Assembly (NCBI GenBank): GCA_964016885.1 | Contig: OZ024750.1 | Location: 10,168,001-10,232,000 of the forward strand | DNA length: 64,000 nt | From: Eledone cirrhosa | Taxonomy: Eukaryota | Direction: 5' to 3' | Shown: positions 47,801-56,800 of the stretch, one piece after another | Position numbering within the stretch: position 1 is the first letter of the stretch | How the letters are laid out: every line of letters begins with the position of its first letter | The notes under the pieces: generated by a model | The model's database searches: none | What the model was told of the DNA's origin: nothing | Seen by the model: the letters and a program-made list of their open reading frames with translations, nothing else | Program-made: the position numbers and the translations under genes

Positions 47801-50800
47801 TGTCCATGCCAACTCCTGTCTACTGCCGAATTTTAGGTGAAGAATTGGAGGAAAAACTCCTAATATTGAATCAAGGCCTAAAAGTTAATCTACTAAGCTG
47901 AAAGTTTTATTTAGAAGGAAAGAAATGTTTGGGAAATGGTTGTGATCAAATGGACATTGATGCTTATTTGTGAAGTGTGATATTGCATGGTAGTTAGACA
48001 AGAGCCAAGACAGGAAGTGTGAATATGGAGGGTGTGCAAAGGTTGGAAAGAAATGGTATGAGCATGCTCTATTGGATGTGTTGCATTAATGACGGAGCAG
48101 AAGTGAGATATGAAAAGAAAATAAGCTCTACAGGAATAAGTTGGAGTCTACAAAAGGGAAGACTGCACTAATAACGTTATGATACATATGAAAGATGGTA
48201 GTTGGGTGAAGAAAGGTCAAGCAATCCAAGTGGAATGAGTTTGCAGAAGAGGAAGACCAAGGAAGTGGTGGTGAGGGTTAATTTCACAATATTGAACCAC
48301 TTCGAAGAGATACTAGTTGATTGCAACAAGTAACAAGATCCTGTTCAATTCATGCCAGCAACATAGATAAAACAGATATAAAATGATAGATTTATTGAAC
48401 TATTTTGCTATTGTATGAAATGTGTGTGTTCTGTTAGCATTTTGAGGATACTGGACTTATGAATGAAATTTGTACTGAACTTAGGAATGAGACTTGTACA
48501 TTTCTAGTAGAATTGTAGCTTTCCAAATATTGCTGTAGTGTTGTCTGTATTGTGTATTACTATATGAAATTGCTAATATGTGTGTCAATATACTCTGAAC
48601 CAAATATTGAACACCACTTCATTAGAATTAAATTCACTACTTCATTAACGAATATCAGATTTTTTTTTTGTTTTTATCTTTCATTAGATTGTCATTATTT
48701 TTGTTTGCTTTTCCCCATTTTCTTTTTTCCTCTTTTTTTTTTATTTTAAAATACTATAATGTGATGTTAGTGATGTGACCATCTCACCATCTTGCAGATG
48801 TTCAGTTCTGAAATTGTGAGCCATTATGGAATCTCTCAGTACCCTGAAGATGATGAGGATGAGGTAGAAAGAAGCTTGTCCTGTGTGTGTTGGAATGATA
48901 TTGATTTAGACTTAGGTCTGCCTGCTTTAACAGGCATTAATTAGACATGACTTTTCCAGAAATCTGGCCATTTTAACTTTCTACTAAACTTTAGATGATA
49001 ACAATTGTAAGATAAATACATCTTTAGATTTGACAAAATCTGATGTTTCAATCAGAAGTATATTATCAAAATATATATTTTTAGAATCAATATTTTCTCT
49101 GGAGTGGGGGTAAAATGTTGTAATTTCTCACTATAGTAACAGAACACTCCTTATGTCTTCAATATTTCACTGTTTTTATATAATATTTCATTATTACCGT
49201 TGTTAGTGAAATTTTGTATATCAAAAAATATTTATATCTAAAAATGGAATTGCTAATTTGTTTTTGAAAACGAGTCACTTTGACTTCTTAAAAGATGAAA
49301 TTTCTTGATGTCACTACATTAGGATTACCAAAAAAAAAAAAAAGAAAAGATTTTTACCGAACCCTGCTTAGTAGGAAATTGTTTCCATAAGTTAATTCTC
49401 ACTAAATTCTTGTAAGTTATTCTGTGTAGAAAGTTAGAGCTAGTTTTCCGGAACAGACTTGTCCTATTGCTGTTGCCAATCCAGGCAAATATTGTTTTCA
49501 AATAACAATTGTTGTGAGACTGCTAATCTAATAAAACCATTTGTTAATATGATAATTCTTTACTTTAAGAATTTAACCATTTTGTTTTTCAGCATTTTGC
49601 CGACCTATTATTCCCAATTGTATATTAAACCATTTGTCTGCTGCAAAATATCATCATTATTACTATCTTTATTATCAGTAACTTATCAATTTAATTTGGA
49701 GTGTTTGTATCAATCATTTGTGGAAGTATTCCTCAGTATTCTTTCAGGAAATGTTACCATATTTAAAATGGTGGCTATCATCTGAAACCTCTCTCTATTA
49801 CTCTTTCTCTCTGATTGTTTCTATAGCTTTGAACTTTTGTTCAGTGAATTCTTTCATTTTTGCTCACTCTTTTGTTTCAACCTATAGTCTTTCTGCTACA
49901 TTTGTGTATTTTTAGTACTATAACAGTTTGGTGGGTCAACAATACTTAGCTTACTTGGGTAGTAGGATACTAAAGGATATTGTTACTTAGCTTACTAAGG
50001 TAGGGTTGGTACTGAAGCTAGATTTAACCAATAGAATCCATCTTGCAGAAGTTTGTTGGTGAAACAGAAAAATGAACAAGGAGCAAAAATCTCAGTAACT
50101 AAAAGACAGGCTTTCCTTAACCTGCAATGTTTTTTCTCGTAATTGAAATGTCTTGTATATTGACTATTTTGTTTCCACCCTGCCCCAACTCATTAGGTTT
50201 AGAGATTTCTTTTATTAAAAAAACATGAATGTCACAACAGGTTTATATTATTAACACTTTATAATTCTCATGAATATTAGAGATATTGTCATTAAGTGGA
50301 AAAGTATTCTAGTTTGACTGTTGTATGTAATATTCAGCATAGATTATTCTATAGTGATGTGAATTTGCTGGATTTTGAGAAGTTTGAAGTTAAAGGCTTG
50401 TGATTAGAGACTCTGAGTCAAGGTTTATTGGGTTAGGGACAGACAATTTTGTTATTTCTTTCAATGAAATATATATAGGAAATAAAAAATAAATAAACAA
50501 ACAAACAATTACGCCATCTTTATATTTAGTGAACCAGTTCTATTTATGACTTCTGTAGAATTCTGTTACATAATTTTTGGCAAAACTGGTATTTAAAAAA
50601 AATTATTTATATTCCAAAAACTTTTTATGTATATCTCTGTGTATTTTATTTTAATTCATCCTCCTATCTTTGTCTGACATAACTTGAAGGTTTTAAATTG
50701 TTTCATTGCCATAGAATAATTAAGTCATTTATATAATTTATTCTTCAATGTAATTTGTTAAATTCTCTGTTGATGGTATGTTATTTTTCTCTAATAAGGA

Positions 50801-53800: not shown

Positions 53801-56800
53801 TTTGGCTAAATCTCGTGAAGCATTAGAGCAGTAAGTAACATTTTCTGTAAAGATATGATTTTAATTTCTATTTCACATTTCCTCTTACTATGTTGAATTG
53901 GGAAGTTCTTGTATATGAATTGAGATATTGTTGTAATAGTTTATAAGGTTCACTGAGTCAAGAAAAGTAGTGTACCTCCTTGTTTTATATTTGAGGTTTC
54001 ATTGTCATACGAGACCATGGTGTGCTATTTAAATTGATCTTATTGAATAATCTACTAGTTTAGATGTTATAACTGTTTCGTCTGACCTATTCCAACATTG
54101 TAAAACAATGATGTTGATATTGAGATGATGGTACACACTAGAATTGATATTGAGATGCTGGTATAACTAGAATGAGATTAGTTATAACATTGAAGTGGAG
54201 AATCTAAAACTTTAGTCATTTACTTTGCTCTTTATTTCTGTAAAATTATTTCGATGATTTACAAATTATTATCAATATTTAAAGGCTCCTGATTCCTACT
54301 TGAATTCTTGTTAAATATTATTTGTGTTGTTTCTTAGTGCCTGGATTGCTCGCCGCATGAAGTTAGATCAATGCCTTGAACTGCAGTTGTTTTACCGTGA
54401 TTGTGAACAAGCTGAAGCATGGATGGCTTCTCGTGAAGCTTTCCTTGCCGGTGATACAGTTGATGGGGACAACGTAGAATCTCTTATAAAAAAACATGAA
54501 GATTTCGATCGAGCCATTAACTCTCAGGTATGTTTCCTACTTTCTTAAGTATATATCTGAATTGGTTGACAGAAAATGCTTTTGTTAAAGTGGAGGCATG
54601 ACTGTGTGATTATGAAATTTACTTTACAACCATGTAGGGTAATTTACAACCATCTTGGGTAACTATTTTGTTTTATAGCTTGATTAATCAATGTCTGATG
54701 AGTGAATTTCATAAGGGGAGACTATAAGAAAGCCTGATGTATGTGTATATATCTGTGTATGTTTACTGCATATATTTTCATATTGACAATGTTTAAAGCA
54801 AACAGGAACGCTTATGTTCTGTGTAAACAGTATGTCCTGCAACACAGTGATTTAAGAGGAGTGGTATATACCATATTTACAAGTAAAGTATGGATTGGGA
54901 TTAGGAAAGATAGCTGGCTGTAGAAAAACTACCTCAAAAAAGTCTCATAATAGCATGGAAAAAAATGGATGTGAAAAGAAGAAAGATGAAAGGAATAGTT
55001 TCAATGTAAATATATATTTCTCACAAAGATACTCATTTTTATATACAGCAAGAGAAAATACAAACTCTGGAGTCCTTTGCCCAACAACTTACATCCGGTC
55101 AACATTATGATAGTGATGCCATTACAGATAAAAGAGACCAGGTTCTGGACAGGTGAGATTGGATTTTAGATATTTCCTTATTTTTAACAGTGGGATTGTT
55201 TTACAATTTTAGACATTTACATGTATTGTTAACCATTTGAACTCTAACCTGCTGCCATGGATGCAGTCTTTAAGCCTGGGCGTCTCCTTGAAAATTGTTA
55301 AAAAAATATTACATCCGTTAATTAAACCCTGCAAAAGATAAGTCTAATGTTTCTCTGAAGAACTTATGCTAAATCCAAGATATAAAAAGATTACTGATTT
55401 GTGTAGAAAGTGGTGTAAATAACAGTAGTAGATAGAAGTACATGGCAGAATGGAATATATCAGGCTGGGGATTTGATTGTATATTAGTTTTGTGTATCAT
55501 ACTTCTGAATTGAAATCATTGAATTGATCTAGTAGTACATTCTGGATATGACATTTAGAGGAAGAGGGGGCTGTGACTTTCTTTATTAAATCTGAAAGGT
55601 AAAGTGATCTGTGGCAGAATTTGAATGCAGAACTCAGAGAGCCAGAACAGCTATTACAAAACATTGTCACTTTCAAGACTCTACCAAGTGACTGTCATGT
55701 CTCCTAAAGTTAAAATAAAAAGCAGTTGTAAAAATGTTATTAGTTTTTAGCCTTATTTTGCCTGATGTATCTTTTTAAAAGATTATAATTTTTTGCGTGG
55801 TAAAAAAAAATGATACTATGTTTTGTAAAAATATATCTCCATTTCAATATTTTTCTTTGTTCACAAAATCTATTTTATTTTACATAGATGGGCCAAATTG
55901 AAAGAAGCTCTGATAGAAAACCGTTCCAAACTGGGTGAAGCACAATCCCTCCAACAATTCTCACGTGATGCTGATGAAATGGAAAACTGGCTTCAAGAAA
56001 AGATTCAGATAGCATGTGATGAATCTTACAGAGATCCATCTAATATTCAGGTAAGATACAAATGTTTTCTCCCACTTTACACCAACTACACTCTATGTTG
56101 CCTCAGTAAAATTATTTCATTCTCTCTTTATAATTTACTATGTGGCCAATAAAAGGCCACATATCTTGTTTAGAACATAACTGATGTCAAATATTGTGTT
56201 TAGTTGATATTAATTGGCATCAAGAAATATTTAATGAAAGCAATTCTTTATGTAAAAGTGACTTATAAGAACGTAACACTTTGTGATTTATCTAAAGTTT
56301 TAATCTAAAAACTTGTAATGAATTTATTCATATAATCTTTGTTGAAAAGCCTGAAGTTGAAAGATTAACTTCAAATTTCTCTTGAAATTCTCTTTCTTAA
56401 TAAAGGATTCTGACTGAGAACATATCTACATTGAATGTTCTTCTGGTGGTTCTCGCTCTCTAAATGATAATCTCTCTTGTCAGAAATGTTGATTGTAATT
56501 TCTCATCTAATTTCTGTTCTCAGGCTGCTTTTCTCTTCTATTTTTCTCTTTATCTCTCTCTCTTTCTCTCTCAGCACTCTGTCTTTGTTATTCTATTTAA
56601 TCTCACCCTTTCCTTGACAATTATTTCATGAGGTGTTTCTTTCCATCTCACCATTGCAGGAGTTGAATGTGGAGAGAAACAGCTTGGTACAGGAGGTACA
56701 TGTTGACCTGACCTCTGGGTTCTCTCCCCCTCTTCATTTTCACCCCCTTCCCTTTTCCTTACTCTTCTCCTGCTTGTCTCTATTTTCGTTCTTTCCAACC

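What the first reader, a model, noticed from the sequence alone, without database searches (positions are those of the whole stretch)
48779..56695. Two candidate spectrin cassette exons share a near-identical YCAY-cluster acceptor, suggesting a co-regulated splicing module
Seen: the acceptor before the 66-nt candidate reads CCATCTCACCATCTTGCAG (48779-48797). The acceptor before the 36-nt candidate, 7.9 kb away in another intron, reads CCATCTCACCATTGCAG (56643-56659). A third acceptor-like site (TTCTCACCACCTCTACAG, ending 53606) shares CTCACCA. I saw no such motif at the 44 constitutive acceptors, which are mostly T-rich. The 12-mer packs three YCAY words (CCAT, TCAC, CCAT) around a branch-point-like CTCAC. 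Established: YCAY clusters bind NOVA/Pasilla KH proteins, and binding over the 3' splice site usually represses inclusion. Inference: the exons may be switched together by a NOVA-type factor, producing tissue-specific spectrin isoforms with peptides inserted in repeats a13 and a15.
Basis: partly seen in the sequence, partly recalled or inferred. Interest (0 to 1): 0.75.

Follow-up and report, generated by a model that had tools for sequence, protein, structure and literature searches.

The report
Two spectrin exons, one splice signal
A cephalopod's alpha-spectrin gene has two small optional exons with almost the same rare splice-site signal; one exon is old and shared with snails, clams and likely insects, the other looks newer and likely copied the signal, so the two would be switched on and off together.

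Summary
Both acceptors are as reported. The 17-19-nt motif occurs only twice in the 3.0-Gb genome, both times here, so it is neither a dispersed repeat nor a genome-wide module. Both exons are real: spliced contigs of one run show inclusion and skipping of each, at similar depth, about 430 of 700. The 66-nt exon is old. Its core [11 protein letters not shown] stands in 75 of 401 alpha-spectrins (gastropods, bivalves, cuttlefish), and arthropods have a 14-residue counterpart resembling the next 14 native residues. Its acceptor element is kept in 1 of 2 bivalve loci. The 36-nt exon is in 0 of 348 proteins and sits where vertebrates insert LSKLL. Three YCAY words lie within 25 nt of both acceptors and of 0 of 44 constitutive ones; Nova-like genes exist. 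Best reading: an old, selected, probably Nova-type silencer that a younger exon acquired, likely by local copying. Factor, tissue and co-inclusion are untested; the third site has no RNA support.

The parts
47381..47480 (+). constitutive alpha-spectrin exon ending ...ALLERHQ (start of helix B of the repeat)
   Evidence: tblastn with cuttlefish P0241; splice sites
48598..48797 (+). YCAY-rich intron end: 10 YCAY in 200 nt (constitutive acceptors 0-7)
   Evidence: 9 of 632 windows reach 10; shuffle p 0.011
48759..48797 (+). acceptor element 1: ATGTGATGT ... CCATCTCACCAT-CTTGCAG; similar to the distal acceptor in bivalve locus L003:1924-1944(-)
48798..48863 (+). 66-nt cassette exon, [22 protein letters not shown]; old protostome exon
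   Evidence: RNA-type contigs; homologous inserts
53589..53606 (+). third, weaker acceptor-like site (2 YCAY); a 9-nt exon TATGTATAT|GTAGGT would be possible; use not shown
   Evidence: sequence; no contig form seen
53682..53830 (+). constitutive exon [14 protein letters not shown]...; its first 14 residues resemble the cassette peptide
54338..56050 (+). three further constitutive exons (54338-54527, 55049-55152, 55888-56050, the last ending DPSNIQ)
   Evidence: GT..AG joints in run X4
56628..56659 (+). acceptor element 2: ATGAGGTGT ... CCATCTCACCAT-TGCAG
56660..56695 (+). 36-nt cassette exon, [12 protein letters not shown], at the position where vertebrate alphaII-spectrin inserts LSKLL; not found in other proteins
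   Evidence: joint 56050->56660, depth 430.6, and loose end into exon 59971
59971..60049 (+). constitutive exon [10 protein letters not shown]...

Best explanation
These are two optional, frame-keeping exons of a cephalopod alpha-spectrin gene whose acceptors carry the same rare YCAY-cluster element, which likely is a binding site for a Nova/pasilla-type protein that would silence both exons together. Shown: both exons are included and skipped; the element occurs only at these two acceptors; the 66-nt exon is shared across molluscs. Inferred history: the 66-nt exon arose long ago as a duplicate of the next 14 residues of helix B and kept its acceptor element (still seen in a bivalve); the 36-nt exon is younger and likely got the element by a short local copy of about 20-45 nt, or by convergence. 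Inferred action: the YCAY triple sits where the U-rich tract normally lies, so a bound KH protein would block acceptor recognition and give skipping in factor-rich cells and inclusion elsewhere. Predicted protein effect: the 66-nt peptide continues helix B in register and loops out an acidic linker plus the native EHRTEIDA segment.
For: Inclusion and skip forms for both exons, each about 420-440 of about 700 depth. Motif 2 of 2 genome copies at these acceptors; flanks single-copy. 3 YCAY in the last 25 nt vs 0 of 44 constitutive acceptors; 10 YCAY in 200 nt before the 66-nt exon vs at most 7. Bivalve L003 distal acceptor CCATATGCCACCATATTGCAG with upstream ATGTGATG: alignment reached by 0 of 2000 shuffles; 7 YCAY in 100 nt, p 0.021. 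Oyster extended isoforms end SPLQ, as the 36-nt acceptor reads in frame and 0 of 44 constitutive acceptors do (protein-level compatibility only). Exon bodies are barely alignable while the 12-mer is identical, which fits selection on the element. Nova-like loci on C1, C28 and C4, best PDB match Nova-1/2. Nova/pasilla sites are enriched immediately upstream of silenced exons (PMC3165201, passages). AlphaFold: with insert, helix 45-66 runs through [10 protein letters not shown] and the native segment drops to block pLDDT 54; without insert it scores 96-97.
Against: No binding, knock-down or tissue data; one RNA-type run of unknown tissue from the same study as the DNA runs; contigs cannot phase the two exons and depth is a poor measure of level. 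The joint 47480->48798 itself was cut from the table and is inferred from arithmetic. L004, the second bivalve locus, lacks the element at both acceptors, and the L003 proximal acceptor has 0 YCAY. YCAY over 100-200 nt before the 36-nt exon is not above shuffles (p about 0.6), and its downstream intron has 11 YCAY in 300 nt, a position linked to enhancement, against 2 for the 66-nt exon, so the two could respond differently. Other KH or CA-binding factors could read the same C-rich word. The models rest on 33-sequence alignments; the five insert models range 72.7-83.4 pLDDT.
Confidence: 0.45

Rival explanations
1. The shared word is a recent, neutral local copy (or chance likeness of two C-rich acceptors). 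It made a usable acceptor for the 36-nt exon, but the two exons are regulated independently.
For: Only two copies, 7.9 kb apart in one gene; the 36-nt peptide is in 0 of 348 proteins, including the few other cephalopod ones; wider YCAY context differs between the exons; 1 of 946 constitutive pairs also shares 12 nt.
Against: The element at the 66-nt acceptor is kept in a bivalve (0 of 2000 shuffles); exon bodies have diverged while the core is identical; both exons show about the same inclusion depth.
Confidence: 0.22
2. The element is an activator site or a non-canonical acceptor read by another factor (PCBP/hnRNP K-type C-rich tract binder, hnRNP L, or SF1/STAR binding the CTCAC branch-like word), which promotes inclusion of both exons.
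For: Acceptors are C-rich (8 and 7 C in the last 20 nt vs mean 2.5, max 7); the 66-nt acceptor is weak in a simple matrix (3.6 bits; 40 of 44 constitutive score higher); other KH genes are in the genome. PCBP, hnRNP L and SF1 preferences are recalled, not tested.
Against: What is kept between cephalopod and bivalve is the CCAT/CACCAT words, which match YCAY, while CTCAC itself is not kept in L003. A branch A at -10/-12 would be unusually close to the AG (established knowledge).
Confidence: 0.17
3. Both are neural small exons of the SRRM3/4 (eMIC) programme, the TGC of TGCAG being the UGC motif.
For: Both acceptors end TGCAG (2 of 44 constitutive do); the 36-nt exon has a UCUC-rich tract (9 words in 100 nt) and sits at the vertebrate LSKLL site; pasilla and eMIC targets overlap in fly brain (PMC8797185 section 11).
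Against: AG-free zone is 25 nt (constitutive median 38.5), whereas the gene's LWLLDG microexon has 157 nt with TGC at -14; nearest CTAAY is at -153 and -225; 66 nt is long for this class (fly median 31 nt).
Confidence: 0.12
4. The two copies are selector sequences that pair with a common docking site or hide in hairpins, as in Dscam.
For: A 7-bp hairpin TGAGGTG/CATCTCA covers the 36-nt element in the centroid fold; ATGGTGAG at about 56878 is complementary to CTCACCAT.
Against: Fold z-scores -0.18 and 0.48; local folds p 0.58, 0.09 and 0.83; the exons are separated by four constitutive exons and are not a tandem array.
Confidence: 0.04

Closest known systems
Alternatively spliced inserts of vertebrate alphaII-spectrin (SPTAN1): the LSKLL microexon and the 20-residue post-SH3 insert
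   Same: Same gene family; the 36-nt exon lies at exactly the DPxNIQ|SKHQKH junction where 22 of 348 proteins (vertebrate where named) carry LSKLL. The 20-residue insert is described in PMC6521328 (passages); zebrafish sptan1 microexon removal gives mild neural phenotypes (PMC12626420, passages; which microexon was not checked).
   Different: The 36-nt peptide is unrelated in sequence and 12 residues long, so homology is unproven. No vertebrate or amphioxus protein examined has a spliced-type insert at the 66-nt site.
Nova/pasilla-silenced cassette exons (YCAY clusters immediately upstream)
   Same: Three YCAY in 12 nt directly before the AG, a wider cluster before the 66-nt exon, partial conservation, Nova-like genes present (map from PMC3165201).
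   Different: Binding and regulation untested; no mollusc Nova target turned up in my search; identical 12-nt copies at two exons of one gene are not a usual feature of Nova targets (recalled).
eMIC/SRRM3/4-dependent microexons
   Same: Short, frame-preserving, TGC near the acceptor; the gene's LWLLDG exon (L016:3946-3963) has this architecture.
   Different: The two exons lack the long AG-free zone and a near CUAAY.
Automatic RefSeq/GenBank isoform models of mollusc and arthropod alpha-spectrin
   Same: The 66-nt exon's peptide already stands in annotated isoforms of many species, e.g. cuttlefish P0241.
   Different: No description of the insert, its helix duplication or its acceptor element came up in my searches; the 36-nt exon was in no protein fetched.

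Membership tests
alpha-spectrin (alpha-Spec/SPTAN1 orthologue) | spectrin repeats with central SH3 and C-terminal EF hands, collinear with known alpha-spectrin | tested here: met
   cuttlefish P0241 aligns collinearly, mostly at 75-100% per exon, through the window and L016-L017; its Pfam domains
cassette exon | inclusion and skip junctions both present, GT..AG, frame kept | tested here: met
   36-nt: joint and both loose ends shown. 66-nt: loose-end consensus explained 30 of 30 letters by skip plus inclusion forms; 5' joint inferred from depth arithmetic and from P0241
Nova/pasilla-silenced exon | cluster of three or more YCAY immediately upstream of or within the exon | tested here: met
   3 in the last 25 nt at both acceptors, 0 of 44 constitutive
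Nova/pasilla-silenced exon | cluster conserved in orthologues | tested here: inconclusive
   kept at the distal acceptor of L003, absent in L004; no DNA for the 36-nt site in other species
Nova/pasilla-silenced exon | Nova protein encoded by the organism | tested here: met
   three loci with best PDB match Nova-1/2
Nova/pasilla-silenced exon | Nova binds the site and inclusion rises on Nova loss | not testable with these tools
   needs CLIP, knock-down or minigenes
eMIC/SRRM3/4-dependent microexon | long AG exclusion zone | tested here: not met
   25 nt at both; constitutive median 38.5; LWLLDG exon 157
eMIC/SRRM3/4-dependent microexon | UGC close to the acceptor and UCUC-rich tract | tested here: inconclusive
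   TGC only at -5 inside TGCAG; UCUC words 9 (36-nt) and 2 (66-nt)
eMIC/SRRM3/4-dependent microexon | neuron-restricted, eMIC-dependent inclusion | not testable with these tools
   one run of unknown tissue
dispersed repeat | many copies with similar flanks in the genome | tested here: not met
   2 motif copies; 201-nt flanks single-copy (that search skips very common words)
Dscam-type docking/selector array | tandem mutually exclusive exons with a conserved pairing site | tested here: not met
   four constitutive exons lie between the two; folds not above shuffles

The most novel reading that the evidence does not exclude
A new exon was born by copying the regulatory acceptor of an ancient exon in the same gene and so inherited its Nova-type control at once. 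The result is a phased double-insert alpha-spectrin in which an old duplicated helix segment swaps into the three-helix bundle and loops out an acidic hinge: a protostome-wide, undescribed splice switch of spectrin mechanics or partner binding.
Probability: 0.25. Interest if true: 0.7.

Novelty: new variant of a known kind. Interest (0 to 1): 0.45.

Why it matters
An optional peptide whose 11-residue core is unchanged across gastropods, bivalves and a cephalopod, with a counterpart in insects, spiders and ticks, points to an old function of alpha-spectrin that vertebrates appear to lack. The twin acceptor gives a clean two-exon test of how a new exon joins an existing splicing programme, and a first candidate Nova target in a mollusc genome with at least three Nova-like genes. 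It is one gene, not a genome-wide programme, and optional spectrin inserts and YCAY control are known kinds.

Tried and rejected
No RNA holder was listed as such; run X4 is taken as RNA because its contigs join exons at GT..AG. Third site at 53606: no contig cover and only two forms entering exon 53682; contigs drop rare forms, so this is not evidence of absence. Genome-wide module: rejected; 3 of the 11 hits (L005, L006, L010) share flanks and look like one repeat family. Alternative first exon for the ATG-starting 66-nt exon: rejected, as depth leaving exon 47480 (about 706-724) matches depth entering 53680 (about 702), the median loose length 61 equals the mean of 28 and 94, and P0241 has the peptide inside the chain. 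RNA structure: not above shuffles. U12-type intron: donors are GTTTGT and GTAAGA, not the U12 consensus (consensus recalled). Other octopod proteins: none came up in three protein searches (best 120 listed of 197, 1186 and 1115), so the age of the 36-nt exon is not bounded inside octopods. Viral contig scan for the exon: 0. One search was crowded by repeats and cut the joint of interest. The fold search confirmed spectrin repeats (1cun Z 19.9, rmsd 1.3, 211 aligned) but does not say which 25 residues loop out. One search had four of seven exon frames wrong and was used only to pick near proteins. The 2019 eMIC paper is not held; no supplements were read, and exon tables in such papers may already list these exons. 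In one search, 6 of 401 site-1 inserts look like read-through introns and are counted as 'other'; 48 of 449 proteins had no readable site 1, and 53 of 401 no readable site 2.
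Full report
Observation. The two acceptors, the exons behind them and the third site are at the stated places. The gene is alpha-spectrin on the + strand: a cuttlefish protein (P0241) aligns exon by exon through the window and into the next 11 kb. 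That the organism is a cephalopod is inferred from this likeness. None of 44 constitutive acceptors has three YCAY in its last 25 nt; both cassette acceptors do. The 50-nt alignment of the two acceptors is reached by 2 of 2000 shuffles; 1 of 946 constitutive pairs shares a 12-nt word.

Not a repeat, not a genome-wide module. CCATCTCACCATN{0,3}TGCAG has 2 matches in 3.0 Gb, both here; the reversed control has 50. Both 201-nt neighbourhoods are single-copy. Looser patterns give 283, 11 and 27 matches against controls of 832, 63 and 47. Of the 27, only the two window sites passed my filter for a frame-preserving exon of at most 150 nt ending in G before a common donor (2 of 2 vs 0 of 25); the filter is crude.

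The exons are real. No run was on record as RNA, but run X4 has contigs that join exons at GT..AG. For the 36-nt exon the joint 56050->56660 (depth 430.6), the loose end from 56695 into exon 59971 and the skip form are all shown. For the 66-nt exon, two contigs enter exon 53682, and their mixed consensus is explained at 30 of 30 letters by the skip form and the cassette end. The cassette bin needs a depth of 423-442, and the depth leaving exon 47480 (about 706) matches that entering 53680 (about 702). The 5' joint itself was cut from the table. Inclusion of roughly 50-60% for both fits co-regulation but cannot show it: one run, unknown tissue, same study as the DNA runs, no phasing, and contig depth is a poor measure.

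The 66-nt exon is old. Of 449 fetched proteins, 401 had a readable site: 75 carry [11 protein letters not shown] plus an acidic tail (named sources include abalone, limpet, periwinkle, pond snails, oysters, mussels, scallops, clams and cuttlefish), 14 from insects, spiders and ticks carry a 14-residue insert such as NHRAEIDAHYGLAQ, 306 carry none and 6 look like read-through introns. These are isoform counts, not independent species. The arthropod inserts match the following native 14 residues [14 protein letters not shown] at 7-8 positions and the mollusc insert at 6-8, so all likely descend from one duplication of a piece of helix B. AlphaFold models of a decapodiform fragment, each on a 33-sequence alignment, show helix 45-64 through EHRTEIDA at pLDDT 96-97 without the insert. 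With the insert, helix 45-66 runs through [10 protein letters not shown], residues 70-83 are disordered and the native segment falls to 54. This predicts, but does not show, a swap of the insert into the bundle.

The 36-nt exon looks young. Its peptide is in 0 of 348 readable proteins; 22 have LSKLL at the same junction, 2 have other inserts and 324 none. Few cephalopod and no named octopod proteins were among them, so the age is loosely bounded.

The element is conserved once. A metagenome scan for the exon gave two bivalve-like genomic loci. In both, an upstream alternative acceptor adds an in-frame extension like those of annotated clam isoforms. In L003 that distal acceptor reads CCATATGCCACCATATTGCAG with ATGTGATG upstream, as in the window; 0 of 2000 shuffles reach the alignment score, which also holds for four possible comparisons. 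L004 lacks it, with a tandem repeat upstream, and both proximal acceptors lack it. Oyster extensions end SPLQ, the in-frame reading of the 36-nt acceptor: a hint at protein level only.

Mechanism. Nova proteins read YCAY clusters and silence exons from immediately upstream, in mouse and fly alike (PMC3165201, passages). The genome has three Nova-like loci. I therefore take the element as a likely Nova-type silencer placed over the pyrimidine tract, old at the 66-nt exon and acquired by the 36-nt exon, with confidence 0.45 for the whole chain. Against it: the 36-nt exon has no wider upstream enrichment and 11 YCAY in 300 nt downstream (2 of 43 constitutive donors reach that), which could reverse its response. 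The eMIC reading fits worse: PMC8797185 (passages and sections 10-11) lists long AG-free zones, UGC, UCUC and CUAAY, and these fit the gene's LWLLDG microexon (AG-free zone 157 nt, TGC at -14) better than the two exons (25 nt). RNA folding is not above shuffles.

In print. Ten searches of the held library gave no paper on this insert, on the motif at a splice site or on mollusc Nova targets; the peptides had 0 hits, and five motif hits were in papers on unrelated subjects (listing only). Subscription papers and supplements were not seen. PMC12626420 and PMC6521328 were read as passages. The numbering a13/a15 agrees with the classical domain count as I recall it; the sites are 204 residues apart in P0428. 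One earlier scan note on the LWLLDG exon in another cephalopod agrees with what I found here.

Verdict. Observation confirmed; interpretation partly supported. Real alternative exons, one ancient and highly conserved, sharing a probably functional acceptor element within one gene. New variant of a known kind; interest 0.45.

Noticed in passing
L016:3946-3963 (G000:C10, about 4 kb past the window): 18-nt microexon giving LWLLDG, matched by inserts in mollusc, arthropod and amphioxus proteins; AG-free zone 157 nt and TGC at -14, an eMIC-like architecture unlike the two exons studied.
   Followed up: partly
L047 (C1:294.37 Mb), L055 (C28:58.30 Mb), L050 (C4:103.89 Mb): At least three Nova-like KH genes; the C1 copy has all three KH domains in one 559-residue open frame, like an intronless retrocopy.
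   Followed up: partly
window 50039-50049: CCATCTTGCAG, identical to the last 11 nt of the 66-nt acceptor, 1.2 kb downstream in the same intron; poor acceptor score (-19.4); may be chance.
   Followed up: partly
window 56666-57766: An X4 contig (depth 13.2) runs from inside the 36-nt exon 1.1 kb into the downstream intron, deeper than the upstream intron pieces (3-5); may be slow splicing or retention.
   Followed up: no
window 57801-57815: TTTTGTAG|AAAATTGCATCCTTT|GTGTAT: a possible 15-nt frame-preserving piece (KIASF) in the intron after the 36-nt exon, next to a microsatellite; no evidence of use.
   Followed up: no
window 40479-40591: Other molluscs insert a 5-6-residue microexon after EDYGK at this junction; here the intron is 113 nt, shows no such exon, and X4 skips it whole.
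   Followed up: partly
L003:1828-1944(-), L004:424-510(+): Bivalves have gained a second acceptor that extends the old exon by 14-32 residues, in different ways in clams, mussels and oysters.
   Followed up: partly
window 51424-52016 and 31825-32441: Intronic minisatellites of 38 nt (15.6 copies) and 47 nt (13.1 copies).
   Followed up: no
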